The notes under the pieces: generated by a model | What the model saw: only the letters and a program-made list of their open reading frames with translations | What the model was told of the DNA's origin: nothing | Databases searched by the model: none | Assembly (NCBI GenBank): GCA_009777955.1 | Contig: WRKW01000006.1 | Coordinates: forward strand, 1,866-65,865 | Length of the DNA stretch: 64,000 nucleotides | Direction: 5' to 3' | Source of the DNA: Alphaproteobacteria bacterium | GTDB lineage: Bacteria; Pseudomonadota; Alphaproteobacteria; Rs-D84 | Position numbers and translations under genes: made by a program | Shown: positions 6,272 to 49,929 of the stretch, one piece after another | How positions within the stretch are numbered: position 1 is the first letter of the stretch | How the letters are laid out: each line of letters starts with the position of its first letter

Positions 6272-6458
6272 CGTGTCATTGCGAGTCACGCCGTCAGGCG
6301 GACGAAGCAATCTTTTATAACGCTTCGTGTCATTGCGAGTGGTCGAAGACCGCGAAGCAATCTTTTCCAACAGGGGAAGTATAATAATTCCATTGCCTGA
6401 AAAGATTGCTTCGTCCGCCTGACGGCGTGACTCGCAATGACATTAAACCGCAATGACA
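6272..6458. repeat. REP-like palindromic array 1 (GTCATTGCGAG..CGAAGCAATC units)
   Basis: Two direct units and one inverted unit flanking a ~30-bp core, directly 3' of the Cys-rich gene. Confidence 0.9.
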
Positions 6459-6575
6459 TTAAAGGCCGAGATCCGCAAACAGCGCCGACCGGAAGTTGGA
6501 AACGGTCTGGGCGGCGTACGCGCAATCGTACGCGCAGCGATACGCGCAAGAGATCGCGCCGAGGTCGCCCCGGAA
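6459..6575 (-). other. DGR-like variable region VR1
   Basis: Differs from the other three copies at codon positions 1-2 of NNC/NNT codons with an invariant TGC GCG scaffold. Confidence 0.75.
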
Positions 6576-6956
6576 AACCCAAGCCGACGAAGCGACACTA
6601 AACCCAGGAATGCTTGTCAGCTTACACCAACAGTTGCTTCCGCTGTCGGCAACAGGGTTACCGATATTGGCATAGCCTCCGCTTGTGCTTGAACACAAAC
6701 TTGTTCCACTGAATTCTGATACATTACTTCCAGTACAGCTTCCTACTTTCCAATCGCCAAGGGATAGGTTGGTGCAATCTTGATCCCAACTTAAACCACC
6801 AGTGCCACTAGCAGGACATTGATTGACACTACTACAACTCGTCGGACTTATGGGTCTTGCCATACACGCAACAGCGGCAATAGACCCATGCAATGGGATT
6901 ATCGTTAATACAGCAAGGATGCTTGTTATCTTTATAGTTTTGTTAAATGTATTCAT
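6459..6956 (-). CDS. Secreted Cys-rich protein, putative DGR target copy 1
   Basis: Signal peptide; CWCK..SSAWVF..CAxxCAxxCA..FRSALF; paralogue of 12480-12971 and 49351-49851. Confidence 0.85.
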   Translation of the reverse strand: MNTFNKTIKITSILAVLTIIPLHGSIAAVACMARPISPTSCSSVNQCPASGTGGLSWDQDCTNLSLGDWKVGSCTGSNVSEFSGTSLCSSTSGGYANIGNPVADSGSNCWCKLTSIPGFSVASSAWVFRGDLGAISCAYRCAYDCAYAAQTVSNFRSALFADLGL

Positions 6957-7028
6957 GATACTCTCTCCTTTGGGTATATTATACCATATACCATGACAAA
7001 GGTCAATTTGTATTTAGTCATGTAAAGT
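6957..7028 (-). promoter_or_regulatory. Conserved sigma70 promoter and RBS of Cys-rich cassette
   Basis: TTGACC-17nt-TATAAT with extended TG, AAGGAG RBS; repeated at 12972-13049 and 49852-49929. Confidence 0.8.
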
Positions 7029-7064
7029 GAACAAAAACACAATTAAAAAACACGTACAAAAATA

Positions 7065-7093
7065 TTGACTTTTTTCCTAATTTAATGTATAAT
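7065..7093 (+). promoter_or_regulatory. Putative sigma70 promoter
   Basis: TTGACT-17nt-TATAAT with extended TG, upstream of 7133 ORF. Confidence 0.6.
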
Positions 7094-7132
7094 CATCAGA
7101 AATGGAGTTTTTATAAAACGGAGGGAAAAATC

Positions 7133-7636
7133 ATGGCAAAAATTATACTGACCGGGTGGCAAAAAGTTTTACTTGCAGTACTGACCTTTCTGGTGGGAAT
7201 ACATAAAACAAACGATGGCAAAGCCAGCTTTGAATCATGCACAAACGCCGGATATGATAGTTATTTTACATTTTCCTATTGGTGCCCGGGCGCAAGTTCG
7301 TGTTCGGGGGGACTGGTTCTTATCGACGGTGTCACCAGCGGATGTTGTGTCAATAATACCGGCATCATCTGTCCCAACGGCCCAATATGCGACGGCAACG
7401 TATTAACCTGTACCACCGCTGGTACTGGCTGTGCATCTTTTAATAGCGGTTGCATAGACAGCACTTGTTATGTATCGGTCAACAGTACCTGTCATAAATG
7501 CCCGACAAGCGTCATTGATGGAATAGAAAGACAGGGCCTGACCTCTACTGTTTTCGCATCAATCGGCGATTGTTATATAAGCTATAGCGGCTCTGACGAT
7601 CCCGGAAACTTTCAAAATATTTGCCAGTGGTCGTAA
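7133..7636 (+). CDS. Cys-rich exported hypothetical protein
   Basis: GGAGG RBS, N-terminal hydrophobic segment, many Cys/Gly/Ser/Thr, CHKCP motif. Confidence 0.7.
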   Translation: MAKIILTGWQKVLLAVLTFLVGIHKTNDGKASFESCTNAGYDSYFTFSYWCPGASSCSGGLVLIDGVTSGCCVNNTGIICPNGPICDGNVLTCTTAGTGCASFNSGCIDSTCYVSVNSTCHKCPTSVIDGIERQGLTSTVFASIGDCYISYSGSDDPGNFQNICQWS

Positions 7637-8616
7637 AACTGTCCCCTATCGTTTCAATCTTGATAGCAAATTATAATTGCGCCGAATTTTTGTGCACGGC
7701 GTTGGATTCAGTTGCCGCACAGACTTTCCGTGATTTTGAATGCATCATTGTCGATGATGCCAGTATTGATAATTCCATTGATATAATAAAGAAATATGTA
7801 AAGCGTGACAAGCGGTTCCATCTGATACAGCACAAAACCAACCGCGGATTGGCGGCTGTGCGCAATACAGGCCTTGACGCGGCACGGGGGGAATATATTG
7901 CTTTTCTGGATTCCGACGATGCTTTTACCGAAAATGCAATTAAATCTTTATACATGAATGCAAAAATGTATAATGCGGACATAACCGGTGGGGCGGCCGT
8001 TACGGTTCCGTCTGATTTTGTTTTTATAAAATCAGAAAATCCGCCGCATTTTACCCAGGTTCCAACAATATTTTTTATCGACAATAATCCGGCAGCGATT
8101 CTGGTAAACCTTTCACGTGTACATCCATCGCACAAGCTTCCATGGGTATGGCGCAGACTTTTCAAACGCAAAACCATAGAAACAACACGGTTTGACGAGG
8201 CTGTAAAACAACAAAACGAAGACCTTTGCTTTATGCTGGATGCATTTTTGAATACGGGCAGATATCTAGAAATAAACGACTCTGTCATGTATCACAGGAT
8301 AAACAAAAACTCCATTACCGGATCGCCGTTTGGTCAAAGCCATTTTCTGCATTTTCCGGCAACATTGCGACATCTTTACGGACTGCGCGGAAAGTACCCA
8401 GAAAATTTGCTATACAAGGGCTATATGCAGTATATGTTTAACACCGTGGTTATAACCGCATTAAAGAAAGGGTACGGCGACATTGCCGCACGAACTATGC
8501 GCAGGGTTTATAGAACGCCGTATTTACCACTGAAATACCTGTCAAAAAAACAAAGGTTGATATTCTGGCTGTTCATGCATTCGTTGATACCATCCAGATA
8601 TGCGCGGAAAAAATAA
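7621..8616 (+). CDS. Glycosyltransferase family 2
   Basis: VSILIANYN, IIVDDASID, RNTGLDAARGEYIAFLDSDD. Confidence 0.9.
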   Translation: MPVVVKLSPIVSILIANYNCAEFLCTALDSVAAQTFRDFECIIVDDASIDNSIDIIKKYVKRDKRFHLIQHKTNRGLAAVRNTGLDAARGEYIAFLDSDDAFTENAIKSLYMNAKMYNADITGGAAVTVPSDFVFIKSENPPHFTQVPTIFFIDNNPAAILVNLSRVHPSHKLPWVWRRLFKRKTIETTRFDEAVKQQNEDLCFMLDAFLNTGRYLEINDSVMYHRINKNSITGSPFGQSHFLHFPATLRHLYGLRGKYPENLLYKGYMQYMFNTVVITALKKGYGDIAARTMRRVYRTPYLPLKYLSKKQRLIFWLFMHSLIPSRYARKK

Positions 8617-8626
8617 AAACGGATTT

Positions 8627-9193
8627 TTACTTTGCCCGTTCGACATATTCAAGGGTTTCTGTATTTACAATAATTCTTTCGCCAATTTCGATAAATACCG
8701 GAACCTGTACACGGACACCATTATCCAATATCGCGGGCTTTCCGCCACCAGCCGCGGTTTGACCCTTTAACGCGGGTTCGGTTTCTTCTATTGTGGCAAC
8801 AACTGTTTTCGGCAAAGATATGGAAACCGGATGGCCTTCGACAAAATTCGCCGAAACCTTCATTTCCGGCACCAGAAATTTAATCGATTCGCCAAGTGCT
8901 TCGCTTGGCATCGCAAATTGTTCATAATCCTTTAAATTCATGAAATGCGAATCCGCGCCATCTGAATATAAGAATTGGCATTCTATATCTTCGACCATAA
9001 GCTTTTCGACCTTGTCTTCGGAACGAAAGCGTTCGCCGCCCTTGCTTCCCGAATCGATATCGCGAAGCTCTGTCTGTACGAACGCCCCGCCCTTGCCCGG
9101 CTTTACCTTCATTATCGAAGTAACGGAATATCTTCTGCCATTATGGGAAATAACCCAACCAACCCGAATATCATTTGCAATATATGAAGCCAT
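8627..9193 (-). CDS. efp: Translation elongation factor P
   Basis: KVKPGKGGAFVQ, KPAILDNGVRVQVPVFI, YVERA. Confidence 0.95.
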   Translation of the reverse strand: MASYIANDIRVGWVISHNGRRYSVTSIMKVKPGKGGAFVQTELRDIDSGSKGGERFRSEDKVEKLMVEDIECQFLYSDGADSHFMNLKDYEQFAMPSEALGESIKFLVPEMKVSANFVEGHPVSISLPKTVVATIEETEPALKGQTAAGGGKPAILDNGVRVQVPVFIEIGERIIVNTETLEYVERAK

Positions 9194-9283
9194 TTTTACA
9201 CCCTTTTGTTTTCCGCCGGATTATAAGCGGAAAATAGCGGATTTCAAGAAAAAATGGTAATCTAATTCAGCCGATGGAAAACT

Positions 9284-10231
9284 TTATGCGGTTCTTGAAT
9301 AATTTCCGCTTAAAAAATTTACCAGAAATCTATTCGCAATAGTACCTTTTTCTTTTGCCATATAGCTTAAAGGTAATCTGCAACAGTCATGTTTAATAAG
9401 CCCCATACGCATTCCAATATATTTGATTGGTACGGGGTTCGAATCTATGAATGCCAGCTCTGCAAGTCCGGCAAGCATTTTATTTATTTCCTCTGCCTTT
9501 GAAATATCCCCGGCATGCATAGCATCGGTCAAGGCCTTTACCTGTCTGGGTACGACATTGGATATTACAGAAATAACACCATCACCGCCGGCCTGCATTA
9601 CTTTGAAAGTCAGACCGTCGTCCCCGGACAAGACAGAAAACTCCCTGCCCTTTGCAATCATCGGATTTTTAATTTCGTTTATAACACGATCTATATGATC
9701 TATGTTGCCAGAGGCCTCTTTTACACCAAATATGTTTGGAATCTGGACAAGTTCCTTGTATTCTTCGATGGTGATACCACGACCGGTACGACCCGGAACA
9801 TTATAAATTATGATGGGAATGGGGATTTCCGCAAGCATCTCGAAGCTTTTTATCAGCCCCGCAGTATTCGGTTTTACATAATAAGGCACCACTACCATGG
9901 CGGCGTTTGCACCGGCCTCGTACGCGCGCCAAGTATTATCCCGCGCTGTATACGGATTAATATCCCCCGTTCCAATGATAAGTTTTACATCTCTGTCGCT
10001 TTCGGCTATGGATTCTTTTGCCGTCTTTACCAGACGGTTTTTTTCACGGGTATCCAGTTGCGGGGTTTCGGCCGTGGTACCAAGAACGACCAGTCCGTCT
10101 ACCCCCCAGTTGATTTGATATTTTAAAAGCTTTTCAAACCCTGCATAATCCACAGAGAATTCTTTTTTCACACGCGAATTCGGGTTCATAGGGGTAAAAA
10201 GGGCGGTATATGTCCCTTGGAACATACTCAT
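9284..10231 (-). CDS. dapA: 4-hydroxy-tetrahydrodipicolinate synthase
   Basis: GTTAE, PYYVKP, IIIYNVPGRTG, GVKEASG, SGDD, NPVPIK. Confidence 0.9.
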   Translation of the reverse strand: MSMFQGTYTALFTPMNPNSRVKKEFSVDYAGFEKLLKYQINWGVDGLVVLGTTAETPQLDTREKNRLVKTAKESIAESDRDVKLIIGTGDINPYTARDNTWRAYEAGANAAMVVVPYYVKPNTAGLIKSFEMLAEIPIPIIIYNVPGRTGRGITIEEYKELVQIPNIFGVKEASGNIDHIDRVINEIKNPMIAKGREFSVLSGDDGLTFKVMQAGGDGVISVISNVVPRQVKALTDAMHAGDISKAEEINKMLAGLAELAFIDSNPVPIKYIGMRMGLIKHDCCRLPLSYMAKEKGTIANRFLVNFLSGNYSRTA

Positions 10232-10289
10232 GGAGAATCCTTTTGTTTCTCCCTCTCTATCGGGATCTTATACTTATTAAAGATGTATT

Positions 10290-10805
10290 TCAACTGTTTT
10301 TCGCACAATGTCTTTTGATGCTTTCTATAATGATTTTTTCGGCCCTCACCCGGTCGCCCCAACCCATTACTTCCGACCATTTTTTCGGATCCATATCTTT
10401 ATAATGCTTGAAAAAATATTCTATTTTATGCCGCAGTATCAATGGTAAGTTTTTTACCGATTTCACATCACGGAAAAAGGGATCTACTGTACCACCCGGA
10501 ACGCAAATGATTTTTTCATCGCCGCCGGCCTGATCTTTCATGATAAGGACACCTATGGGACGCACTTCGATAAGGCATCCCGGAATCAGCGCGGCGTTAC
10601 TTACCACTACTGCATCAAGCGGATCGCCATCGTCACCCAGGGTTTCCGTAAAATATCCATAATTGGCGGGATAGGCAAGCGGGGTATGCAAAATCCTGTC
10701 AACCCGAAGCAAACCGGACTTTTTGTCGATTTCATATTTGACCTGTCCGTTTTCTGGAACTTCTATGATTACAGTAAGATGTTTTGATAAAATTTTGGCT
10801 GTCAT
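10290..10805 (-). CDS. ppa: Inorganic pyrophosphatase
   Basis: VKYEIDK, YPANYG, DGDPLD, FFKHYKD. Confidence 0.95.
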   Translation of the reverse strand: MTAKILSKHLTVIIEVPENGQVKYEIDKKSGLLRVDRILHTPLAYPANYGYFTETLGDDGDPLDAVVVSNAALIPGCLIEVRPIGVLIMKDQAGGDEKIICVPGGTVDPFFRDVKSVKNLPLILRHKIEYFFKHYKDMDPKKWSEVMGWGDRVRAEKIIIESIKRHCAKNS

Positions 10806-10872
10806 GGCAAATTCCTTTAAAGGAACTATACCACAGATTTCCGAATTTTTCCAGTGGTGGCGAAATAAGACC

Positions 10873-11991: not shown

Positions 11992-12083
11992 GACTTTACC
12001 TTTTACTTGTTCCTTTTATTCTCTCTTATATTTGGAATATTACCAATAATCCCCGATTCGGGGCAAGGGGAAAATCTGGAACA

Positions 12084-12134
12084 GGGTAAGGCGTGGGTAC
12101 GTGAGTTACGTAAGGCGTAAGGCGTGAGACGTAA
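12084..12134 (+). repeat. Degenerate heptamer tandem repeat (CGTAAGG-like)
   Basis: ggtaaggcgtgggtacgtgagttacgtaaggcgtaaggcgtgagacgtaa. Confidence 0.55.
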
Positions 12135-12135
12135 T

Positions 12136-12479
12136 GTGTCATTGCGAGTGGCCAAAGACCGCGAAGCAATCTTTTCCGGCATTCCGTGTCATTGCGAGTG
12201 GTCAAAGACCACGAAGCAATCTTTTCAAATATTTTGTGTCATTGCGAGTGGTCAAAGACCACGAAGCAATCTTTTCAGATATTTTGTGTCATTGCGAGTG
12301 GTCGAAGACCACGAAGCAATCTTTTCAGGCAAGGGAATTATTATACTTCCCCTGTCGGAAACGATTGCTTCGTCCGCCTGACGGCGTGACTCGCAATGAC
12401 ACGAAATGTCGGAAAAGATTGCTTCGTCCGTCACCGCAAGCGGTGACGCGACTCGCAATGACACCAGACTGCAATGACA
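12136..12479. repeat. REP-like palindromic array 2
   Basis: Four direct units with exact 50-bp period (12136, 12186, 12236, 12286), a core, then two inverted units. Confidence 0.92.
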
Positions 12480-12597
12480 TTAAAGGCCGAGACCCGCAAA
12501 CAGCGCCGACCGGAAGACGGAATGGAGCTGGGCGCGGATCGCGCAATCGCCCGCGCAGTCATACGCGCAATAGGACGGATCGCCGTGGCCGTACGCG
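12480..12597 (-). other. DGR-like variable region VR2
   Basis: NNC/NNT codon-restricted variation relative to other copies. Confidence 0.75.
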
Positions 12598-12971
12598 AAA
12601 ACCCAAGCCGACGAAGCGACACTAAACCCAGGAATGCTTGTAAGCTTACACCAACAGTTACTGCCGCTGTCGGCAACAGGATTACCAAAGTTAGGGTAGC
12701 TTCCAGTAGTATTAGAGCATAGGCTCGTGCCACTGAACTCTGATACATTACTTCCAGTACAGCTTCCTACTCTCCAATTCCCAAGGGATAGATTATTACA
12801 ATCACCATCAATACCAAGGGCGGAACAATAGGTCATGCCATTACTTGGACAACTGCTCGGGCTATTAGGTTTCGGTACGCACGCCACAGCGGCAATAGAC
12901 CCATGTAATGGGATTATCGTTAATACAGCAAGGATGCTTGTTAGCTTTATTGTTTTGTTAAATGTATTCAT
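12480..12971 (-). CDS. Secreted Cys-rich protein, putative DGR target copy 2
   Basis: Same architecture as copy 1; C-terminus AYGHGDPSYCAYDCAGDCAIRAQLHSVFRSALF. Confidence 0.85.
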   Translation of the reverse strand: MNTFNKTIKLTSILAVLTIIPLHGSIAAVACVPKPNSPSSCPSNGMTYCSALGIDGDCNNLSLGNWRVGSCTGSNVSEFSGTSLCSNTTGSYPNFGNPVADSGSNCWCKLTSIPGFSVASSAWVFAYGHGDPSYCAYDCAGDCAIRAQLHSVFRSALFAGLGL

Positions 12972-13049
12972 GATACTCTCTCCTTTGGGTATATTTATAT
13001 TATACCATATTCCATGACAAAGGTCAATTTGTATTTAGTCATGTAAAGT
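12972..13049 (-). promoter_or_regulatory. Conserved cassette promoter, copy 2
   Basis: TTGACC-17nt-TATAAT, AAGGAG. Confidence 0.8.
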
Positions 13050-13059
13050 AAGATGAATA

Positions 13060-26109: not shown

Positions 26110-26928
26110 TTATTCCCCTATTGCGGTGCTTACGACAAGCACCCGGTTTCCTTTATAGAATTTCGCATAAGGCACCGGATTGGCACGTGAAAAATTCCGC
26201 ACCAAAGCACTGGACACATCTATGAATCGCCCCTTGAATACTGCGGATGCTTGTATCGGGTATTCGCGCGACGTGCCCCATACCAGATCCCAACCCTCTC
26301 TGTTGCACCATTCTTGCAAAACTTCGCGCAGGGTCGATCCGCTGGCCACAACCCAAGAACGCACCTGGTCAGGTATTTTTGAATCCGACCCGGATGATTC
26401 TGTATCCTCTACTTCCATATCGGGGCATTCGTCACATTCGTCAAAGGGCGCATCCGAACCAAGAAACATTTGTGGTCTGGTATCCGGCTTTTTCCGTCCT
26501 GATCGGGACATGGCCAATACCTGTGCGCCGTCGTCTTCCAACATCGCCTGGTGCATCAATGGCATTTCAGCCTGGTTTTCATATATGTTGAATCCTATCG
26601 GGGCCTGATACCCATGTATAAGGTTTGCACCGCCAGAAAATCCCATTCCATCATTTCCACGCGCGTCCATGCTTATATTATTTTCCACGGTCAAATCCGC
26701 GCCAATTTTTGATACTATGCGTATGTTATCACGATCATCACCGGCATACCGGACACCGCTATCTTGTGCGGTGGTTGCGATCTGCATATCGGCATCGGAT
26801 CCGGGTGCGGGCCAAACCGGCGGCTGCGCAAATTGTTGCGGTGCGTGGTCTTGCAATGCGAACCCATCGGCCCAGCAATAGCCACAACAAGTCGCAAAAA
26901 GCGCGAAAATAAAGATTTGTCGGAACAT
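26110..26928 (-). CDS. TcpQ/PilL-domain type IVb pilus biogenesis protein
   Basis: C-terminal WVVASGSTLREVLQEW..GWDLVW..YPIQASAVFKGRF..YKGNRVLVV, adjacent to secretin. Confidence 0.8.
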   Translation of the reverse strand: MFRQIFIFALFATCCGYCWADGFALQDHAPQQFAQPPVWPAPGSDADMQIATTAQDSGVRYAGDDRDNIRIVSKIGADLTVENNISMDARGNDGMGFSGGANLIHGYQAPIGFNIYENQAEMPLMHQAMLEDDGAQVLAMSRSGRKKPDTRPQMFLGSDAPFDECDECPDMEVEDTESSGSDSKIPDQVRSWVVASGSTLREVLQEWCNREGWDLVWGTSREYPIQASAVFKGRFIDVSSALVRNFSRANPVPYAKFYKGNRVLVVSTAIGE

Positions 26929-27095
26929 AGAAAGATCCTTCCTTTATAACGTTACAAAACGATTATAACGAGTTTGGAAAAACGACGCAATTAAAAAGTA
27001 TGCCGTTGCAACACGTTATTTTTGTTTGCTTATATGTCATACCGATAATGTGCGCTGTGCGCACGATGCTCTATTCTAAATGAATAATGAATAGC

Positions 27096-27330
27096 GGACG
27101 AAATAATCTTTTCCAACATTTCGTGTCATTGCGAGTGGTCAAAGACCGCGAAGCAATCTTTTCCGGGCATTCCGTGTCATTGCGAGTCACGCCGTCAGGC
27201 GGACGAAGCAATCTTTACAGACGATGGAATTCTTATACTTTCCCTTTTTGGAAAAGATTGCTTCGTCCGTCACCGCAAGCGGTGACGCGACTCGCAATGA
27301 CACCAGACCACAATGACATCAGACCGCCAT
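27096..27330. repeat. REP-like palindromic array 3
   Basis: Degenerate unit, two direct units, core, one inverted unit. Confidence 0.9.
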
Positions 27331-27334
27331 AACA

Positions 27335-27564
27335 TCAAAGGCCGAGAGCCGCAAACAGCGCCGACCGGAAGAAGGAATTGCTCAGGGCGATGCCCACGCA
27401 AGAACCCGCGCAGTAATACGCGCAACCGGACGGATCGCCGTAGTCGACCCCACTGAAAACCCAAGCCAACGAAGCGAAACTAAACCCGGGAATACTTGTT
27501 AGCTTACACCAACAGTTACTGCCACCATCTACAACTGGGTTGCCGATATTGGCATAGCTTCCGC
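27335..27564 (-). pseudogene. 5'-truncated Cys-rich DGR-target copy 3 (VR3 at 27335-27455)
   Basis: GSYANIGNPVVDGGSNCWCKLTSIPGFSFASLAWVFSGVDYGDPSGCAYYCAGSCVGIALSNSFFRSALFAALGL*; homology stops at ~27564, no start or signal peptide. Confidence 0.85.
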
Positions 27565-27756: not shown

Positions 27757-30700
27757 TTAATCCAAGCTTGTCATCACGGTATCACCAAAACAAGCCACTT
27801 TTTGGGTTCCTATATAACAACAGGTCTTGTCTTCCATATCATCACGCCATTTTTGTTCTGCCTCGTCTGCTGCTCTCTCGGCACGGTTCTTCATAATTGC
27901 CATTGTTGTTCCAAAACCAGCAAGTGTGGCAGCAGTGGTATTAATACCCATATTCCAAGCTTGATTATTACCACCCACAGTTTTTGTTATTGTTTCAGAC
28001 TGTTCTCGTAAATTTTGACAAAGTTTTTCCGCAGCTTCTTTTGCTTTACTGTGCTCATCAGTCTTAGGATGTGCCTCTATATTACAACCCGAATCTCTGC
28101 TTATTTCCGAACTAATCTCAAGCCCGGAACTTGGTATTTGGCATACATTATTTCCATCGATAGTAACATTTTTTATTTTACCTATAGCACTTTTAATTTT
28201 ATTAATACAACTATTTGCCACTTCTTTATTTTCGGCTTCTTTATTGTTATTTAATATGCCACTGCGTTTACCTTTGTTGTTTAGGACATGCGTTGTTATT
28301 GCGCCAGCACCACCAGTAAGTGCTGCAACACCTAGTGATGTTAACCACCTTCTGCCCTTTCCATCATCAAGTTCGTTTTTATGTATTCTTTTTGCAATTT
28401 CATTTATTGTATCTTCTGGAATCCAAGAACCACAATCAAATGAATCTCCCACGGCAAAAAATCTTGTGGTACCAGCACTATTGATGGATAGATGCCCACT
28501 GCCTATCGAAGTTCGATCGGACAGTATTTTTTGGATTTCACTATCTGTTGACCGCAGTTCTACAGCTATTGCACAGAAACCATCGCCTGGATCGCGACTT
28601 TCTATAAAACTTGTATTAAGCCCATTTAGCGCGTAGTTCATTCTGTCAAAATTTTTGAAATTGGTGCCCCCCGTATGCTTTACCCATGCATAAGCCAAAT
28701 TTGTACCTGAATTTCCGGACATACAACGATTGAACTCCCTTGTTTTTCTTGCACGGCGTTCTTGCTGTATTGTATCGTTCATTTCACTCAATACATCATT
28801 AAATACTTGTCCTACCGCAATTACACCTTTTTCTATTTCTACTTCGAGTGCAGGATTATTATAAGTTTCGCAAAGCTCATCCTGGCAACTAGGATCAACT
28901 TTTGTTCCACAATCACCTACGATTTTTTTATTATAACCGGCTGTACATTGTAGTTTGTTGTCTACTGATATCTGCTGTTGAACACTTATATGGGGGGCGT
29001 CAACCGCACTTCTCCAAGCATTATCAATAGAATTCGAAGTTCCCCAAGAAGGTGTATTTGATTTTGTCCGAAGCGCTTCTAACACGTCAAAATGATCTTT
29101 GCATATAGGATCATTTGTGACTGTATCATAGCAAAGACCAATAACAATCCCCCGATCCAGAGTTCCATCAGCACGTCTGCTGGTATCTATCACTGCTGGA
29201 ATCCAGTCGTCAACTCCTGTATTAAAGGCACCACCACCAGTATAGCACATGTCATAACCACTGCCACATCTATTTGTTATACAGGATTTAACAGTAGAGC
29301 GACATTGCTGACGAATCCTGTCTATTGAGCCGGCACTGAATGACGACGACAGGCGAGTGTTTAATGAAGCAATGGCTCCTGTCGGATCGCTACCAAGTTT
29401 ACATGGAGCGGTAGTGCAACAAGCGGGGGAAGTACCAGTTGAATTACTGCATTGAAACAAGTTATTGAATACATCCTCTTTATAACTAAATCCATCAAAA
29501 ACTCCATCTGCGTTTACAAACATTTCCACTTCTACAAAACGGCAACTTGGGTCATTACTTATAATTCCTTCACAACCAAGTTTAATTGCTGGACGAGTGC
29601 TAATTCCAGCGATGTCAATAGTGCCACTACTTGCCTGAGCCTGGGCGTAACATGCGGCACCGTTACCTTCGGCACAGCTATTCATTGCACATTGGACAAT
29701 CGTATCACGGCACTGTGCGCGCGCGTTTTCTACTGCTTGAGCAATAAGTTCGTCAATTTTCCTTTCCATGTTTGTTTTATTTTGACCAATAAAACGTTCG
29801 CTGAACACAAGATCAAAAATATCTTCTCTGTTTTCCTGTTTTACAAGATCGGATGGTCTTGGCGGACCGGCATCAGGAAATGTCGTCATATAGCATGCCT
29901 GGCTGGTACCAACGGTGTCTATGCACGCCCGGCTTAAAAAATCTTTGATATGTCTCATATTTATAGGTTCTAGATAACAACCCGGAGAATTAAGATCTTC
30001 GTTAGTCCTGCAATCTTTACCCTCTAATTTTCCGGCAACATCAAATGATGTTCCGGATTTGCAATAATATGGATTCGGAGTGCATGCACGCGCAAAACAC
30101 TGGTCGACCAATTTGTAACATGTTGGTACGGCATTGTTTGCGGCATATAGATTGCCTTCTCTTATCAGGGCGGCAATCCTGCTATTTGATTCATTTTCTA
30201 TCGTTAATTCTGTAAGTGTTTTGCGAGTTTTTCCTTCAAACAGTTTGCGCGCAATTGGTGTCATCACACCATTACAATCGATTTTTTCCGGCTCTTCTTC
30301 CCCCAAATTTGATCCGAATAAACCATTAATTGCATCAATCGGACATGTGGCAAGCACATCTTGGCACATGATTTTATTCTGATTAAATTCTTTGTATTGG
30401 TCGATTCCTGTGCTTTCTGCACAAAGTTCAAAGTGTTCGCCACAGACATCATCTTTTTTTAAACAATCGGTATATCTGGAAATACAACGTGCAGTAGTGG
30501 TGATTTCTGGCATCGGACGATTGCAAGAATATGGGGTGTCTTTTGGCTCATTTACTGGCACCGGAGTTATCCCTATTGTTCTGCCTATGGTTGCGCCGGC
30601 GATAGAACGTCCGCCAACAGAACCCATGGTCGGCGTTGTTGGTAAACGGCGTGGGTCATATATCAGCTGGCTGGCATCAGCCTGAGTCAGGGCATAAGGC

Positions 30701-30759
30701 ACCAGACAAAGGGCAAATAGCACCGCGCGAAACATCGAACCTGATTTTTTTATAATCAT
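27757..30759 (-). CDS. Large (~1000 aa) secreted Cys-rich protein
   Basis: AGGAG RBS, signal peptide, repeated C-x6-C-x4-C-x6/7-C motifs, two Gly/Ala/Thr hydrophobic segments near C-terminus. Confidence 0.8.
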   Translation of the reverse strand: MIIKKSGSMFRAVLFALCLVPYALTQADASQLIYDPRRLPTTPTMGSVGGRSIAGATIGRTIGITPVPVNEPKDTPYSCNRPMPEITTTARCISRYTDCLKKDDVCGEHFELCAESTGIDQYKEFNQNKIMCQDVLATCPIDAINGLFGSNLGEEEPEKIDCNGVMTPIARKLFEGKTRKTLTELTIENESNSRIAALIREGNLYAANNAVPTCYKLVDQCFARACTPNPYYCKSGTSFDVAGKLEGKDCRTNEDLNSPGCYLEPINMRHIKDFLSRACIDTVGTSQACYMTTFPDAGPPRPSDLVKQENREDIFDLVFSERFIGQNKTNMERKIDELIAQAVENARAQCRDTIVQCAMNSCAEGNGAACYAQAQASSGTIDIAGISTRPAIKLGCEGIISNDPSCRFVEVEMFVNADGVFDGFSYKEDVFNNLFQCSNSTGTSPACCTTAPCKLGSDPTGAIASLNTRLSSSFSAGSIDRIRQQCRSTVKSCITNRCGSGYDMCYTGGGAFNTGVDDWIPAVIDTSRRADGTLDRGIVIGLCYDTVTNDPICKDHFDVLEALRTKSNTPSWGTSNSIDNAWRSAVDAPHISVQQQISVDNKLQCTAGYNKKIVGDCGTKVDPSCQDELCETYNNPALEVEIEKGVIAVGQVFNDVLSEMNDTIQQERRARKTREFNRCMSGNSGTNLAYAWVKHTGGTNFKNFDRMNYALNGLNTSFIESRDPGDGFCAIAVELRSTDSEIQKILSDRTSIGSGHLSINSAGTTRFFAVGDSFDCGSWIPEDTINEIAKRIHKNELDDGKGRRWLTSLGVAALTGGAGAITTHVLNNKGKRSGILNNNKEAENKEVANSCINKIKSAIGKIKNVTIDGNNVCQIPSSGLEISSEISRDSGCNIEAHPKTDEHSKAKEAAEKLCQNLREQSETITKTVGGNNQAWNMGINTTAATLAGFGTTMAIMKNRAERAADEAEQKWRDDMEDKTCCYIGTQKVACFGDTVMTSLD

Positions 30760-31103
30760 ATTCTTCTCTCCTGGACTTGTCCCAAAAGCACAATGTGCAA
30801 AAGGAACCCCAAAAATGGCGCATAACATACATTATGTATATTTGCGATTGCGCCAAAACGACCAAAAACCGCTGTTTGGTTCTGGCATGTACATTCCATT
30901 CCATATCATTTTATCATATTCAGGGTTATTGCACAAATGAAAAATAATGAAAAACAAAACAGATATTGAAACCTATTTCTATCGACTCACAATTACATAT
31001 CGTGCTCTTTTTAACAGAAATTTTAGCAATGGGGTGGGTATTACCCGTTCTTTCTGCCACACTTTACAACCAAACTGGTGCACTTCAAATCATAATCCAC
31101 AAC

Positions 31104-31256: not shown

Positions 31257-31799
31257 ATGGAATTTTTTGAAATCGCTTTGGCGGTCATGCTTATAGTTTT
31301 GGCGGTCAGTATGATATCGCTGTCAGTATCCGCCAGGGCAAGCCAGCGCATAAAGGCCATGGAACTGTTATTGGCGCGACAATCCGCTGTACTTGTAAAA
31401 ACCCAGGGAATCTACCGCGCGCGCGCGGCGGCGGAAATTATCGCGCAAAACGCGGACATGTTATACCAAGACCTATTACAGCACATACTGCCCATTACAC
31501 GTGCACTTGAAATCCAGCCACGCGACACGGCGGAACATCCCCTGTGGCAAACTTTGGGTGGAATGGTCGATGAATATGCGAAAAATCCCTATGTATTGGA
31601 AAATTTGCGCAAGATGATAAAGCTTGATCCAGACACAGCACGCAGTGCGGATGCGTTTTTGACCCGGGCTGAAAAACTGTTGCGCCATTTGTCGGACAAT
31701 GATCCAGATGGCTTGTTGGCATCTGCATTTGCCGACGGCCTGCTTGGTCAAATCGTGACTTTGCTATTCCAGGCGAAACAACTTGCAAAAGATAACTAG
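31257..31799 (+). CDS. Membrane-anchored hypothetical protein
   Basis: N-terminal TM helix, helical soluble domain, AAGGA RBS. Confidence 0.7.
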   Translation: MEFFEIALAVMLIVLAVSMISLSVSARASQRIKAMELLLARQSAVLVKTQGIYRARAAAEIIAQNADMLYQDLLQHILPITRALEIQPRDTAEHPLWQTLGGMVDEYAKNPYVLENLRKMIKLDPDTARSADAFLTRAEKLLRHLSDNDPDGLLASAFADGLLGQIVTLLFQAKQLAKDN

Positions 31800-32197
31800 G
31801 CTTTGCCGACGCAATAGTTTTCACAATCAGCCATGCAATCTTCTGGTAATCCATAATCCCGTAAAAACATCCAGTCGCCGCTTTCATCATATTTGCACCA
31901 GCATTTTCCACCCGATTCGTCTTCTGGAATATCTATACCTTCATCAGAAATAGAACATGTCGCGAATATTATTTGTTCGTTTGTATTTTCGATCTCATAT
32001 ACCTTTTCCCTGCGATTGCGCGCAATTATGCTTTTGTACTTATCTTTTATATATTCTGATGTTTTTTCATACAATTGTTCTGCACCCGGAAATTTGTCTG
32101 AAAAATAAGCCTGGTTGCCAGATATATAGTTCCAAATAACAAACACCCCGCTTGCCAAAGCCAACAGGAAAGAAAGCCTGATTATCAGTTTTTTCAT
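31796..32197 (-). CDS. Membrane-anchored protein with CWC..W..CxxxCxxxC domain
   Basis: GKCWCKYDESGDWMFLRDYGLPEDCMADCENYC shares Cys spacing with the DGR-target family. Confidence 0.7.
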   Translation of the reverse strand: MKKLIIRLSFLLALASGVFVIWNYISGNQAYFSDKFPGAEQLYEKTSEYIKDKYKSIIARNRREKVYEIENTNEQIIFATCSISDEGIDIPEDESGGKCWCKYDESGDWMFLRDYGLPEDCMADCENYCVGKA

Positions 32198-43514: not shown

Positions 43515-43562
43515 AGTATTATTATACGGTAATTTTAACAAATAGCAAACACGAGCTATAAA

Positions 43563-43856
43563 ATGTCCTTTACCAAACAACAATTGCAAAAATTCGCCCA
43601 CCTTATACGTATCGAAATAAGCGATGATAAATTGGATCAGATGAAAATCGATTCTATAATCGACTGGCTGGATAAATTGAAAAAAATCGATACCACTGGC
43701 ATCCAACCCATGATTTCCCCCGCGGAGCACACTGTCAAACTGCGCGACGACATCGTGACAGACGGCAATATCCGTGATGCAGTGCTGGCGAATGCGCCGG
43801 ATAATACCGGAAAATCCCGCGGATATTTTGCCGTGCCAAAAGTTATGGATGAATAA
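43563..43856 (+). CDS. gatC: Asp/Glu-tRNA amidotransferase subunit C
   Basis: LRDDIV..LANAP..YFAVPKV. Confidence 0.92.
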   Translation: MSFTKQQLQKFAHLIRIEISDDKLDQMKIDSIIDWLDKLKKIDTTGIQPMISPAEHTVKLRDDIVTDGNIRDAVLANAPDNTGKSRGYFAVPKVMDE

Positions 43857-43857
43857 A

Positions 43858-45330: not shown

Positions 45331-45331
45331 T

Positions 45332-46852: not shown

Positions 46853-46866
46853 AAAAGAGAAACATA

Positions 46867-47025
46867 ATGCAACCCGTAAAAACCATAAAATACGAAGCCT
46901 ATGCGATAACCGGAATACAAGTGTTTGATTTTAATCCGGATAACCAATACGATGTTTATAAGAAAACACAGCAAGCACGCGAAGAACAGTCGATAATCAA
47001 ATATTGCCGGGCAAGACGAAAATAA
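46867..47025 (+). CDS. Small hypothetical protein (52 aa)
   Basis: Short ORF filling the gap after gatB; below ORF-track cutoff. Confidence 0.3.
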   Translation: MQPVKTIKYEAYAITGIQVFDFNPDNQYDVYKKTQQAREEQSIIKYCRARRK

Positions 47026-47128
47026 GCGAACCAAAAGAGAAAATATTCGTCGATAAATATAATTTGAAAAAGGCGCGCCGACCAATCAGAAACAAAGGGA
47101 GAGAGAAGCAACCCGAAAGGATCTTATT

Positions 47129-47656
47129 ATGAAGCAGGCAAACATCAGGCGGAAACTGGAATCCAAATCTAAAAACAGAATGCCGGAAATAACATACCCG
47201 ATGCTTGAAAAATGCTGGGCAGATTATATTTCTAATAGGCATTTGGAAAAAATAAACCCCGATAGTTTTTTACAGTTCGTCCGTCAAAGACATCCGGGGC
47301 ACAAAGCACTGGGCATGTGGTTCATAAAAACATTTGTCGAAAAAAGAATCGAATTGCTTCGCAAGACAGATCCAAAAATTTTCCGAACCCCCGAACCCGT
47401 CAAAATACCCGAAAAAATTCAACCACAACCCGCACCCGTTTTGTTTGAATTGTCTGCGGAATTTATCGAAGAATGCTGGTCATGGTACAGCAGATATAAA
47501 GATATATATATGCTTACCGGATTCGGCCTTGCACAATATGTAAATAGTGAGGCACGGTTGAAATTCGGCGCGGGAAAATTCACGCTTGCAAACCCGGATC
47601 AGATGGATAGTTTTATAGATAAAAAATGGATGGCGGGAAAAACCAAAACATTATGA
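47129..47656 (+). CDS. Hypothetical protein
   Basis: 175-aa ORF, AAGGA RBS, weak internal duplication (LEKCW/IEECW), stop overlaps miaB start. Confidence 0.6.
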   Translation: MKQANIRRKLESKSKNRMPEITYPMLEKCWADYISNRHLEKINPDSFLQFVRQRHPGHKALGMWFIKTFVEKRIELLRKTDPKIFRTPEPVKIPEKIQPQPAPVLFELSAEFIEECWSWYSRYKDIYMLTGFGLAQYVNSEARLKFGAGKFTLANPDQMDSFIDKKWMAGKTKTL

Positions 47657-48936
47657 AATCATTCTATATAAAGACCTTTGGTTGCCAGATGAATGTTTAT
47701 GACGGGCAACGGATTTCCGGGATGCTGTGCGGGCTGGGCATGATGCCGACAGACGACGTTACGACGGCTGATTTAATAATCCTGAATACCTGTGCCGTGC
47801 GGGAAAAAGCCAGCAATAAAGTTTTTTCGGAATTGGGGCGAATTCGCAATCGCAAAAAGCCGGATGCTCTTTTCGGAATTATCGGATGCGTCGCGCGGGA
47901 AGAAGGCGCGAATTCTTTTCGCCGCATTCCAGAATTGAATTTTGTCCTTGGACCACAATCGTATCACAAGCTGGCCGACATCATAGAAAACCCGGATGCT
48001 AAGTTATTGAATATTGATTTATCCGGATTGGAAAAGTTCGATGCCCTGCCCCCCATGATCGACAACCCGGTTGTCGCATATATACCAATCCAAGAAGGAT
48101 GCAATCACTGTTGTACTTATTGCATAGTGCCATATACCCGCGGAAGGGAATTGTCACGTTCATTTGATGATGTTATAAATGATGTTCATGCGGCAACCGG
48201 TGCCATAGAAATTTGCTTTTTGGGTCAAAATGTAAACGGATATAAAGATAAAGACGGCAAAAACCTGGCCGACCTGATCCAGGCAACGGCAAAGATTGAA
48301 TCAGTCAAACGAATCCGATTCACATCCAGTTATCCGACCGAGATGTCAGACGGGCTTATAAAGCTGTTCGGGCAAGAACCAAAGCTTTTACCCTTTTTAA
48401 ACATGCCTATACAAAGTGGGTCGCCCGATGTATTGACACGAATGAATCGTCCATATTCGTTGGTACTATATATAGATATTATTGAAAAATTGCGGGATGT
48501 ATGCCCGAATATACAAATATCCAGTGATTTTATAATAGGGTTTCCGGGGGAACTTGATTCAGATTTTGAAATGACCTGTGACATAGCGCGACGAATCGGA
48601 TATATAAATTCATACAGTTTTAAATATTCGCCCAGACCGCATACCGCCGCCGCGACAATGGATAATCAGATTCCGGAAAATATAAAAAAACAGCGTCTTA
48701 AAATTCTGGATGATATACTTACGGAAAATAATCGTACATTTAACGAAAGCTGTATCGGACACACCATGCCCTGTTTAATCGAGGGCCGGGACAAGACCGG
48801 GGGACATCTGCTTGCCCGAACGCCATACATGCAGCAAGTGATTATCGCAGCAACTTCGGCGGCGGCGGTTGCACCAATACAAAACATTAAAATAACTTCC
48901 GCTAATAAATGCTCTCTGCGTGGCAAAATAGTTTGA
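47653..48936 (+). CDS. miaB: tRNA-2-methylthio-N6-dimethylallyladenosine synthase
   Basis: TFGCQMNVYD, NTCAVREKA, radical SAM CNHCCTYC, SDFIIGFPGE, YSPRPHT. Confidence 0.93.
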   Translation: MKSFYIKTFGCQMNVYDGQRISGMLCGLGMMPTDDVTTADLIILNTCAVREKASNKVFSELGRIRNRKKPDALFGIIGCVAREEGANSFRRIPELNFVLGPQSYHKLADIIENPDAKLLNIDLSGLEKFDALPPMIDNPVVAYIPIQEGCNHCCTYCIVPYTRGRELSRSFDDVINDVHAATGAIEICFLGQNVNGYKDKDGKNLADLIQATAKIESVKRIRFTSSYPTEMSDGLIKLFGQEPKLLPFLNMPIQSGSPDVLTRMNRPYSLVLYIDIIEKLRDVCPNIQISSDFIIGFPGELDSDFEMTCDIARRIGYINSYSFKYSPRPHTAAATMDNQIPENIKKQRLKILDDILTENNRTFNESCIGHTMPCLIEGRDKTGGHLLARTPYMQQVIIAATSAAAVAPIQNIKITSANKCSLRGKIV

Positions 48937-48947
48937 TTGCTGATTGT

Positions 48948-49350
48948 GTGTCATTGCGAGTCGCGTCATCGCATTAGTGTCATTGCGAGTGGTCGAAGAC
49001 CGCGAAGCAATCTTTTCCAAACATTCCGTGTCATTGCGAGTCGCGGCACCGCTTGCTGTGACGGACGAAGCAATCTTTTCCAAACATTCCGTGTCATTGC
49101 GAGTGGTCAAAGACCGCGAAGCAATCTCTCCAAACATTCCGTGTCATTGCGAGTCGCAGCACCGCAAGCAGTGACGGACGAAGCAATCTTTTCCAGCATT
49201 TCGTGTCATTGCGAGTGGTCGAAGACCGCGAAGCAATCTTTTTCAAGCAGGGAAGTATAATAATTCCATTACCTGAAAAGATTGCTTCGTCCGCCTGACG
49301 GCGTGACTCGCAATGACACCAGACCAGAATGACATCAGACCGTCATAACA
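48948..49350. repeat. REP-like palindromic array 4
   Basis: One truncated plus five direct units alternating short and long hairpin types, core, one inverted unit. Confidence 0.92.
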
Positions 49351-49474
49351 TCAAAGGCCGAGACCCGCAAACAGCGCCGACCGGAAGTCGTCACCGGAAT
49401 CGGACTGGGCGAAGTTCGCGCAATCGTACGCGCAGCGATACGCGCAATTGGACGGAACGCTGCCGTCGAGCACG
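49351..49474 (-). other. DGR-like variable region VR4
   Basis: NNC/NNT-restricted variation plus a two-codon insertion. Confidence 0.75.
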
Positions 49475-49851
49475 AAAACCCAAGCCGACGAAGCGACACT
49501 AAACCCAGGAATGCTTGTTAGCTTACACCAACAGTATCTACCGCTGTCGGCAACAGGGTTACCAAAGTTAAGGTATGTTCCGCTTGTGCTTGAACACAGG
49601 CTTGCGCCACTGAATTCTGATACATTACTTCCGGTACAGTTTGTTAATTTCCAATCCCCAAGGGATAGGTTATTACAATCATTACTATAACCACCCGTAC
49701 CAAGGGCGGAACAATAGGTGTAACTACCGCAACCTGTTGGGCTATTAGGTTTCGGCACACACGCAACAGCGGCAACAGAATCATGTAATGGGATTATCGT
49801 TAATACTGCAAGGATGCTTGTTAGCTTTATTGTTTTGTTAAATGTATTCAT
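49351..49851 (-). CDS. Secreted Cys-rich protein, putative DGR target copy 4
   Basis: Same architecture; C-terminus VLDGSVPSNCAYRCAYDCANFAQSDSGDDFRSALF. Confidence 0.85.
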   Translation of the reverse strand: MNTFNKTIKLTSILAVLTIIPLHDSVAAVACVPKPNSPTGCGSYTYCSALGTGGYSNDCNNLSLGDWKLTNCTGSNVSEFSGASLCSSTSGTYLNFGNPVADSGRYCWCKLTSIPGFSVASSAWVFVLDGSVPSNCAYRCAYDCANFAQSDSGDDFRSALFAGLGL

Positions 49852-49929
49852 GATACTCTCTCCTTTGGGTATATTTATATTATACCATATACCATGACAA
49901 ATGTCAATTTGTATTTAGTCATGTAAAGT
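49852..49929 (-). promoter_or_regulatory. Conserved cassette promoter, copy 4
   Basis: Consensus TTGACA-17nt-TATAAT, AAGGAG. Confidence 0.8.

What the first reader, a model, noticed from the sequence alone, without database searches (positions are those of the whole stretch)
6272..49929. Four dispersed paralogues carry a DGR-type hypermutation signature (remote multi-target retroelement system)
Seen: the final ~40 codons of four copies (6459-6575, 12480-12597, 27335-27455, 49351-49474, all minus strand) align on an almost invariant scaffold (GCT TGG GTT TTC..TGC GCG TAT..TGC GCG..TGC GYG..GCC..TCC..TTC CGG TCG GCG CTG TTT GCG..CTC GGC CTT). About 20 codons vary, nearly all only at positions 1-2 with the third base fixed: ATC/AAC/GGC/TAC, CGC/TTC/ATC/GCC, CTC/TCC/AGC/ACC, CAT/GAT/AAT/GTT, GTC/GAC/TTC/AAC, TAT/AAT/GGT/TCT, and CAG/CTG, GAT/GGT/GCT, TAA/TGA. 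I count one third-position difference. The upstream part of the same genes shows ordinary synonymous drift and A/T-ending codons. Established: DGRs mutate template adenines in AAC/AAT codons and give exactly this pattern at a C-terminal variable region. Inference: a template repeat and reverse transcriptase elsewhere in the genome diversify these targets in trans. Caveats: a few differences (GCG/GTG, CCG/GCG, GGT vs NNC) do not fit pure A-mutagenesis, and no RT, Avd or TR is in this window.
Basis: partly seen in the sequence, partly recalled or inferred. Interest (0 to 1): 0.93.

Follow-up and report, generated by a model that had tools for sequence, protein, structure and literature searches.

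The report
DGR-diversified lipoprotein family, reverse transcriptase deleted
A one-megabase bacterial genome carries some 25-30 copies of a small surface-lipoprotein gene whose tails were rewritten by a diversity-generating retroelement; the adenine-rich template is still in the genome, but the reverse transcriptase survives in this assembly only as a short stub.

Summary
Among the four window copies, 22 of 47 tail codons vary, at 15, 20 and 1 sites by codon position.

The genome (1.02 Mb, 14 contigs) holds 31 such tails. They comprise 21 intact genes, 4 cut by contig ends and 6 fragments.

The predicted template exists at contig C5:69784-69926, minus strand. 27 of 28 A columns, against 8 of 115 non-A columns, differ in at least 20% of 25 copies.

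No DGR reverse transcriptase is in the assembly. A truncated second template copy beside a target gene on C3 is fused to the last ~51 codons of a DGR-type RT. Sister genera keep intact target-TR-accessory-RT cassettes on the same protein scaffold.

The scaffold has no Pfam family. Its confident model (pLDDT 89) matches no PDB or viral fold, C-type lectin included.

Verdict: a real DGR product, exceptionally multi-target, on an apparently undescribed scaffold. It is probably now frozen by RT loss, at roughly 2:1 against an unassembled RT.

The parts
6459..6956 (-). Target gene copy 1: 165 aa, signal peptide ending AAVAC (lipoprotein-like), Cys-rich domain.
   Evidence: ORF; one of the 21 intact paralogues.
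6459..6598 (-). Variable repeat 1, the template-homologous last ~46 codons plus stop, with a 3-nt gap relative to the TR.
   Evidence: Alignments. 18 mismatches at TR adenines against 6 elsewhere.
12480..12971 (-). Target gene copy 2: 163 aa.
   Evidence: It was the query.
12480..12622 (-). Variable repeat 2.
   Evidence: 17 mismatches at TR adenines against 2 elsewhere. 87% identical to the TR over 141 nt.
27335..27562 (-). Copy 3: a 5'-truncated fragment of about 75 codons with no start codon or signal peptide.
   Evidence: tblastn covers only residues 90-163. ORF list and sequence.
27335..27480 (-). Variable repeat 3, with a 3-nt insertion relative to the TR.
   Evidence: 17 mismatches at TR adenines against 7 elsewhere.
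49351..49851 (-). Target gene copy 4: 166 aa.
49351..49499 (-). Variable repeat 4, with a 6-nt insertion relative to the TR.
   Evidence: 16 mismatches at TR adenines against 1 elsewhere. 85% identical to the TR.

Best explanation
The C-terminal ~47 codons of a paralogous family of small secreted, lipoprotein-like proteins were written by mutagenic retrohoming of a diversity-generating retroelement.

Shown:
- One 143-nt template (TR-A, contig C5:69784-69926, minus strand; 28 A, 16 A-bearing codons, 11 of them AAC/AAT) accounts for the variable positions of 25 aligned variable repeats scattered over 11 of the 14 contigs.
- Homology between template and targets ends exactly at the stop codon.
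- The last 36 nt of the repeat carry no A apart from the stop codon. This A-free, GC-rich stretch is a candidate initiation (IMH-like) site.

Inferred mechanism: template RNA was copied by a DGR reverse transcriptase with random nucleotides opposite A. The cDNA replaced the 3' end of each target in trans. This randomised positions 1-2 of the A-bearing codons and homogenised the rest. The possible repertoire is about 6.6e15 proteins per target.

Inferred structure: the varied residues sit on a strand end, a loop and one face of a C-terminal helix. That helix carries Cys at i, i+4 and i+8 (CAxxCAxxCAxx). The predicted fold is not a C-type lectin.

Inferred current state: the element's own cassette (target, TR, accessory ORF, RT, next to gyrB on contig C3) lost the 3' part of its TR, the accessory gene and all but the last ~51 codons of the RT. 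The deletion joins at a shared TTGCGC. The repertoire is therefore probably frozen. I put about 95% on a DGR origin of the variation and about 65% on true RT loss. The confidence given is for both together.
For: Template and A-bias:
- TR-A was found among 26 aligned copies.
- 410 of 614 mismatches fall at the 28 A of 143 positions.
- A columns differ in 59% of copies on average, non-A columns in 7%.
- 27 of 28 A columns against 8 of 115 non-A columns vary in at least 20% of copies; Mann-Whitney p = 7.6e-15.
- 8 of 25 VRs have 3 or fewer non-A mismatches.

Codon positions and homogenisation: the variable stretch shows 0.44/0.45/0.18 difference at codon positions 1/2/3, and the upstream gene body 0.16/0.14/0.28. 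The TR-covered A-free flanks show 0.06-0.11, against 0.34 at third positions of the mature part upstream.

Same scaffold with intact cassettes in sister genera. TR-to-VR differences at A are 15 of 16 in G017, 15 of 18 in G023 and 16 of 16 in G006. Their RT matches PDB 8ub7_A 'Reverse transcriptase' (328 aa) at E = 4.7e-44, and matches RTs in 158 phage records, among them crAss-like, Bacteroides and 5 Bordetella phage records.

RT loss:
- PF00078 finds one RT in G000, and it is UG13b (padloc E = 1.3e-117).
- tblastn with 5 relatives' RTs finds only the UG13b gene and C3:43419-43583.
- That stub aligns to the C-terminus of the G006 RT at 39% over 59 aa (pairwise E = 5e-8), and to the last 22 aa of the G017 RT at 50% (E = 1e-4).
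- The stub directly follows a TR copy cut after 58 nt, beside a target gene.
- The relatives' accessory ORF has no homologue in G000.

Against: - The assembly has 14 contigs that break at these very repeats. An RT-bearing piece flanked by repeats could have been lost in assembly or binning.
- An intact template (TR-A) with all its A codons is still present. Eight VRs are almost free of non-A drift. Both facts fit a live system equally well.
- The profile search gave the RT stub only E = 0.42, while a clearly spurious antisense hit scored 0.009. About 18 of the 59 aligned residues come from TR sequence read in another frame.
- G020, another genome with 10 such paralogues, also lacks TR and RT in an 85%-complete assembly. 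This hints that such cassettes assemble poorly.
- The TTGCGC microhomology at the junction is inferred from protein alignment only.
- A T at template position 27 varies (T/C/G) in 56% of copies. This does not fit pure A-mutagenesis.
- No read-level data could be had; the one run found is low-depth contigs.
- The fold is predicted, not solved, and AlphaFold DB could not be searched.
Confidence: 0.6

Rival explanations
1. The DGR is alive. A complete TR-accessory-RT cassette, chromosomal or on an unbinned phage or plasmid, exists in the organism but is missing from this assembly. It diversifies all targets in trans. The C3 stub would then be a dead duplicate.
For: - Contigs end in target genes, TR flanks and repeat arrays.
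- Three TR copies share a 75-nt identical upstream flank, so this region is a known assembly knot.
- TR-A is intact, and 8 of 25 VRs have 3 or fewer non-A mismatches.
- G020 shows the same 'targets without TR or RT' picture in an incomplete assembly.
Against: - Completeness is 98.6%.
- No RT or accessory homologue lies anywhere, contig ends included.
- The sequence after TR-A runs straight into a convergent M23-peptidase-like gene, and the sequence after TR-B into unrelated genes.
- The one place with RT sequence is a deletion remnant.
- 0 of 4 same-genus genomes have a DGR-type RT.
Confidence: 0.33
2. No retroelement is involved. The pattern comes from diversifying selection plus gene conversion among paralogues, and the A-rich copy is just another family member.
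For: - Paralogues are numerous and recombination among them is likely.
- Some VRs carry many non-A differences, up to 24 of 115 positions.
- Template position 27 (T) also varies.
Against: - TR-A lies outside any target gene. Its upstream sequence is unrelated to the gene body, and it has AAC/AAT at 11 of 16 variable codons.
- The A against non-A contrast is 27 of 28 against 8 of 115 columns.
- Sister genera show the same TR/VR relation next to intact DGR-type RTs, with 46 of 50 differences at A in total.
- An RT stub sits beside a TR copy in this genome.
Confidence: 0.03
3. The single RT of the genome, a UG13b-class enzyme at C2:199867-201252, has taken over cDNA synthesis from TR-A.
For: It is the only intact RT gene in the assembly.
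Against: - It matches the defence-associated RT_UG13b model end to end (E = 1.3e-117).
- It sits beside a DUF4143 protein, with no TR nearby.
- It shares only about 25% identity over the palm with the relatives' DGR RTs.
- The relatives' DGR RTs belong to a different clade.
Confidence: 0.02

Closest known systems
Treponema denticola DGR (TvpA and remote targets)
   Same: Both are cellular, non-phage DGRs acting in trans on several dispersed target genes. The targets are lipoprotein-type surface proteins with a C-terminal VR. [quoted passage not shown]
   Different: Here 25 or more VR-bearing genes plus 6 fragments answer to one template in a 1.02-Mb genome. The predicted scaffold is not a C-type lectin fold. 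The RT is reduced to a stub.
Legionella pneumophila DGR (variable lipoprotein)
   Same: [quoted passage not shown] G000 is a diderm, since BamA is present.
   Different: Legionella has a single cassette-linked target and experimentally shown activity. Here the targets form a large dispersed family, activity is untested and no RT is present. That Legionella has a single cassette-linked target, and that its target has a C-type lectin fold, are both recalled, not checked.
Bordetella phage BPP-1 DGR (mtd-avd-TR-brt)
   Same: A template/variable repeat pair, A-to-N changes at codon positions 1-2 of AAY codons, a VR at the 3' end of the target and a GC-rich invariant 3' end (passages of PMC5758913).
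   Different: This system is chromosomal and multi-target. In sister genera the gene between TR and RT is a 108-128 aa ORF without a Pfam match, not a recognised Avd. The only PF05635 (Avd-family) gene of G000 is unlinked.
Thiohalocapsa sp. PB-PSB1 DGRs
   Same: A record-type multiplicity of diversified targets in one genome: nine loci, 15 targets and 21 VRs (passages of PMC10907252).
   Different: There, nine separate RT/TR loci in four classes diversify C-type lectin domains on large conflict-system proteins. Here one template class serves about 25-31 copies of one small protein, in a genome roughly one-eighth the size. The size ratio is recalled, not checked.

Membership tests
Diversity-generating retroelement (DGR) | A template/variable repeat pair whose differences fall at template adenines. 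| tested here: met
   410 of 614 mismatches fall at the 28 A of 143 positions over 25 VRs. 27 of 28 A columns against 8 of 115 non-A columns are variable. The cleanest VRs show 16-17 A mismatches against 1 non-A.
Diversity-generating retroelement (DGR) | A DGR-clade reverse transcriptase encoded in the genome, usually beside the TR. | tested here: not met
   Only a UG13b RT is found. tblastn and a profile built from relatives' RTs find just a ~51-codon C-terminal stub at C3:43431-43586. Intact RTs lie beside the TR in sister genera G017, G023 and G006.
Diversity-generating retroelement (DGR) | An accessory protein (Avd or equivalent) in the cassette. | tested here: not met
   The relatives' 108-128 aa ORF between TR and RT has no homologue in G000. 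One PF05635 gene exists at C2:60744-61061, but it is unlinked to any TR, VR or RT. That family is multi-copy in the same-genus genomes G001-G004, where no PF00078 match was found.
Diversity-generating retroelement (DGR) | The VR lies at the 3' end of the target ORF, with an invariant GC-rich 3' boundary (IMH-like), and TR/VR homology ends there. | tested here: met
   The VR covers the last 47 codons including the stop. The last 36 nt carry no A apart from the stop codon and are near-invariant. Homology ends at the stop codon. IMH function itself was not tested.
Diversity-generating retroelement (DGR) | Ongoing diversification, seen as within-population variation at TR-A positions. | not testable with these tools
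   The only run found holds low-depth contigs (share 0.07), not reads.
C-type lectin-fold DGR variable proteins | The VR is displayed on a CLec fold. | tested here: not met
UG13b defence-associated RT (DRT) | An end-to-end match to the RT_UG13b model. | tested here: met
   E = 1.3e-117, residues 14-453 against model positions 11-426 of 430. This concerns the unrelated RT on C2, not the finding.

The most novel reading that the evidence does not exclude
This bacterial family uses a previously undescribed, non-C-type-lectin variable-protein scaffold. It is a small disulfide-rich beta domain whose C-terminal helix, pinned by Cys at i/i+4/i+8, displays the randomised residues. In this species one template was broadcast to about 25-30 dispersed lipoprotein genes, the largest single-template target set I could find described. 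Deletion of the RT then froze a hard-wired repertoire of surface variants. That would be a natural transition from somatic-style hypermutation to a germline gene family.
Probability: 0.4. Interest if true: 0.85.

Novelty: new variant of a known kind. Interest (0 to 1): 0.78.

Why it matters
DGRs are the only known prokaryotic system of targeted protein hypermutation. In a 30,000-DGR survey, every annotated variable region was tied to a C-type lectin fold (passage of PMC8144416). The largest set of remote targets reported in the GenBank survey was seven (PMC5758913).

If the reading here holds:
- The fold constraint is not absolute. There is a second, helix-display solution.
- One template can service dozens of loci in a minimal, 1-Mb genome. 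This implies strong selection on surface variability in a reduced, probably host-associated bacterium.
- DGR-built diversity can outlive the retroelement as an ordinary multigene family. That bears on how contingency and antigenic gene families originate.

It also gives a compact, A-free-bounded VR/TR pair and a 130-aa scaffold that could be tried in DGR-based directed evolution.

Tried and rejected
Steps that led nowhere or were set aside:
- Structure from paralogues alone gave pLDDT 44 and was unusable. It was redone with 63 diverse homologues.
- The search for homologous proteins returned 25 hits, nearly all from this genome's own contigs. The family's range came only from the exhaustive profile search: 672 hits at E <= 1e-3.
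- The protein atlas gave no usable hit for the target protein. For DnaN it gave only a weak Pseudomonadota lead. The organism's taxonomy stays unresolved.
- The profile search for RT fragments threw up C8:29130-29246 (E = 0.009). It lies antisense inside a 785-aa VirD4-like gene and was rejected as chance.
- Two-template hypothesis (TR-A ATG/GGT against TR-B ACG/GCT alleles): positions 27 and 129 show no linkage across VRs, so it was dropped.
- TR 3' flanks of G000 and three relatives show no conserved spacer. Nothing can be said about priming sequences.
- The REP-like hairpin repeats after VRs were considered as DGR target-recognition hairpins. Clean VRs such as C5_14788, C4_77672 and C3_42721 lack them, so they are not required.
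- Run X1 (labelled termite gut metagenome; share of words 0.07; contigs only) holds a few 100%-identical 150-250-nt pieces at depth about 2. It shows nothing about the TR/RT junction, and nothing firm about habitat.
- A metagenome contig (L062/L063) gave two more target genes but no RT or TR.
- Literature: search 'diversity-generating retroelement / degenerate / orphan / remnant' returned nothing relevant. I did not find a description of an RT-deleted DGR with retained TR, nor of this scaffold. That is three searches of an open-access library, and supplements are closed, so it is not proof of absence. The supplementary target lists of PMC5758913 and PMC8144416 could contain this domain.
- The identity of PDB 8ub7 as the Bordetella bRT could not be confirmed from the preprint (no occurrence). 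I cite it only by the depositor's name.


Full report
OBSERVATION

Read in the frame of the template, 22 of 47 codon columns vary among them.

Three copies are intact genes of 163-166 aa: window 6459-6956, 12480-12971 and 49351-49851.

The window is G000:C6:1866-65865, in a 1,019,126-bp, 14-contig assembly of 43-44% G+C rated 98.6% complete.

SCALE

blastn with the four tails finds 34 places in the genome. Three are template copies. The other 31 are variable-repeat tails:
- 21 intact genes of 163-170 aa
- 4 cut by contig ends
- 6 fragments

All intact genes share the start MNTFNKTIK...SIAAVAC, a signal peptide with a lipobox-like Cys (my reading, no predictor was run), and ten invariant Cys. 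The genome encodes a BamA/Omp85 homologue, so the bacterium is a diderm.

THE TEMPLATE

One aligned copy, C5:69784-69926 (minus strand, 70 nt from the contig end), is not inside a family gene. It reads VASSAWVF MNDNGDPSNCANNCANNCANNAQNNSD FRSALFAGLGL* and has AAC/AAT at the variable codons.

Over its 143-nt core (28 A) and 25 VRs:
- 410 of 614 mismatches fall at A.
- A columns differ in 59% of copies on average, non-A columns in 7%.
- 27 of 28 A columns against 8 of 115 non-A columns differ in at least 20% of copies; Mann-Whitney p = 7.6e-15. The one invariant A is in the stop codon.
- Eight VRs have 3 or fewer non-A mismatches. The most decayed, C12_6617 and C10_23078, have 24 and 21.

Among the 21 genes, pairwise difference by codon position is:
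- gene body: 0.156 / 0.139 / 0.281
- variable stretch: 0.436 / 0.453 / 0.184
- A-free template-covered flanks: 0.06-0.11

So the template-covered DNA has been homogenised relative to the rest of each paralogue, as repeated retrohoming predicts. Sixteen A-bearing codons allow about 6.6e15 protein variants per target.

WHERE IS THE RETROELEMENT?

PF00078 finds a single RT, at C2:199867-201252. It is a UG13b defence-type enzyme (E = 1.3e-117) next to a DUF4143 protein. It is unrelated to the DGR.

The last 75 nt of contig C5, which is the template's upstream flank, recur identically at C13:87-161 and C3:43304-43378. That gives three template copies:
- TR-A is full length. It runs into a convergent M23-peptidase-like gene.
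- TR-B (C13:156-274) lacks one 12-nt CANN unit, and its 3' end is replaced.
- TR-C (C3:43373-43430) lies 150 nt after the target gene C3:42721-43224. It stops after 58 nt and is fused to sequence ending ...KSTLKRINHRIKKINTIPLCVRRGDPHLVGQIAAMRGWAMHARTDIKIPAL*, just before gyrB.

That tail of TR-C aligns with the C-terminus of DGR-type RTs from sister genera:
- 39% over 59 aa to the G006 RT, residues 260-315 of 337 (pairwise E = 5e-8)
- 50% over the last 22 aa of the G017 RT (E = 1e-4)
- genome-wide tblastn E = 0.01

Caveats on the stub. About 18 of the residues aligned are TR sequence read in another frame. A profile search gave only E = 0.42.

The junction falls in TTGCGC, which is present both in the template (AAT TGC GCG) and at the RT's L-R-K codons. 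I therefore infer a microhomology deletion that removed the template's 3' part, the accessory gene and about 270 RT codons. Six shared bases are too few for an assembler to create this join.

No homologue of the relatives' accessory ORF exists in G000. One PF05635 (Avd-family) gene lies at C2:60744-61061, but it is unlinked. That family is multi-copy across this bacterial family, including the same-genus genomes G001-G004 in which no RT was found.

RELATIVES

In 24 other genomes of the same taxonomic family, 8 have PF00078 matches; the seven full-length matches lie in open frames of 339-411 aa. None of the 4 same-genus genomes does.

Three loci show the canonical layout on the same protein scaffold, with TR-to-VR differences almost only at A:
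- G017: target, VR, TR, a 128-aa ORF, RT; 15 of 16 differences at A
- G023: the same order; 15 of 18 at A
- G006: TR-RT on the strand opposite the target; 16 of 16 at A

The G017 RT's best PDB match is 8ub7_A 'Reverse transcriptase' (328 aa, E = 4.7e-44). It is ahead of the group II intron RTs. It also hits RTs in 158 phage records, including crAss-like, Bacteroides, Faecalibacterium and 5 Bordetella phage records. This fits the DGR clade.

With their own templates, G017 has one VR, and G006 has one close VR plus older copies at 68-79% identity. So broadcasting one template to dozens of near-matching VRs is special to G000 among the genomes examined in this way.

G020 has 10 paralogues with the same NNC/NNT pattern, but neither TR nor RT in an 85%-complete assembly.

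Profile matches per genome are G000 30, G006 22, G017 15, G020 15, G004 7 and G023 6. None of the 16 genomes of other families in the order has a match.

A metagenome contig carries two more family genes. One VR there differs from TR-A at 15 A positions and 1 T.

THE SCAFFOLD

The three window proteins and 10 homologues tested have no significant Pfam family; the only matches, in 3 of the 10 homologues, were weak, below each family's cut-off, and either to other families or outside this domain. The exhaustive profile search finds 672 proteins at E <= 1e-3. They match the C-terminal ~100 residues, often at the protein's C-terminus or in tandem.

With 63 sequences, AlphaFold2 gives pLDDT 89.4. 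The model has five strands, then helices 132-149 and 151-159.

The variable residues fall on the end of strand 123-128, the following loop and helix 132-149. On that helix they alternate with Cys135, Cys139 and Cys143.

Fold searches found nothing:
- Foldseek: no PDB chain and no BFVD model at E <= 1e-3; best TM about 0.2.

The solved DGR variable proteins are, to my recollection, in the PDB. They did not appear among the matches. A 30,000-DGR survey tied all annotated VRs to C-type lectin folds (passage of PMC8144416). So this is a candidate new scaffold, on prediction only.

INTERPRETATION

That a DGR wrote these tails is as secure as sequence analysis allows. Whether it still does so is open.

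For loss:
- the deletion stub
- no RT or accessory gene anywhere in a near-complete assembly
- unrelated genes follow TR-A and TR-B
- no RT in the same-genus genomes

Against loss:
- the assembly breaks at precisely these repeats
- TR-A is pristine
- eight VRs show almost no non-A drift

I put loss at about 2:1.

COMPARISON AND NOVELTY

The GenBank survey reports at most seven non-adjacent targets, in Treponema (PMC5758913 passages). Thiohalocapsa has nine DGR loci with 15 targets and 21 VRs (PMC10907252 passages). Here one template class answers to 25 or more genes in 1 Mb.

The kind of system is known. The multiplicity, the scaffold and the RT-less state are variants I did not find described (searches; supplements closed).

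LIMITS
- No raw reads were available.
- AlphaFold DB was not available.

Noticed in passing
window 6286-6458, 12124-12479, 27071-27334, 48937-49350 (and many contig ends): After 14 of the 21 intact genes, and after the window's fragment copy 3, come 1-3 copies of a 13-nt direct repeat (GTCATTGYGGTCTGRT-like). Arrays of a ~50-nt palindromic REP-like unit follow, with a GC hairpin such as CGCCGTCAGGCG or CGTCACCGCTTGCGGTGACG. The same units occur elsewhere in the genome and end many contigs. Clean VRs without them exist, so they are not needed for diversification.
   Followed up: partly
window 58746-59336 (+): A divergent 196-aa member of the same domain family (CWC...WVY). It has a ~60-aa insertion before a C-terminal CLKKCSEACANAARNAGSFRNGLWQ helix. 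It has no template match, so it is a non-diversified paralogue. A weaker domain match lies at window 31799-31939 (-).
   Followed up: partly
G000:C2:199867-201252 (L001 1018-2403): A UG13b-class defence-associated reverse transcriptase (461 aa), downstream of a DUF4143 protein. It is the only intact RT in the genome and is unrelated to the DGR.
   Followed up: partly
G000:C2:60744-61061 (L064 6733-7083): A stand-alone PF05635 four-helix-bundle (Avd-family) gene between a thioredoxin-like membrane protein and a CvpA-like gene. The family is multi-copy and dispersed in this bacterial family (up to 12 per genome), also in genomes in which no RT was found.
   Followed up: partly
TR-A core position 27 (T of the ATG codon), G000:C5: This non-adenine template position differs (T/C/G, never A) in 56% of the 25 aligned VRs, as if it were mutagenised. 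TR-B has C there. The metagenome VR in L062 also differs there. Unexplained.
   Followed up: partly
window 27757-30828 (-); also L064 2176-5790 (-) and 7972-10452 (+): Very large secreted, Cys-rich proteins of 1023, 1204 and 826 aa, with no annotation attempted. Together with the target family they suggest an unusually disulfide-rich surface proteome for a 1-Mb genome.
   Followed up: no
G020 (same family, other genus), loci L038-L047: Ten ~157-aa paralogues have the same NNC/NNT codon pattern in a CAxxCAxxCAxx tail. Neither template nor RT is in its 85%-complete assembly. This is a second dispersed multi-target set.
   Followed up: partly
L036 1464-1850 (+) and L034 4787-5113 (-): A conserved 108-128 aa ORF lies between TR and RT in the G017 and G023 cassettes, with no Pfam match. 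It is a candidate non-Avd DGR accessory protein.
   Followed up: partly
G000:C8:27369-29726 (L061 370-2727, +): A 785-aa VirD4/TraG-like coupling protein, named from the look of the sequence only. The 272-aa protein at window 26110-26928 has a TcpQ/PilL-like C-terminus by eye. Together they may indicate a type IV secretion or conjugation system.
   Followed up: no
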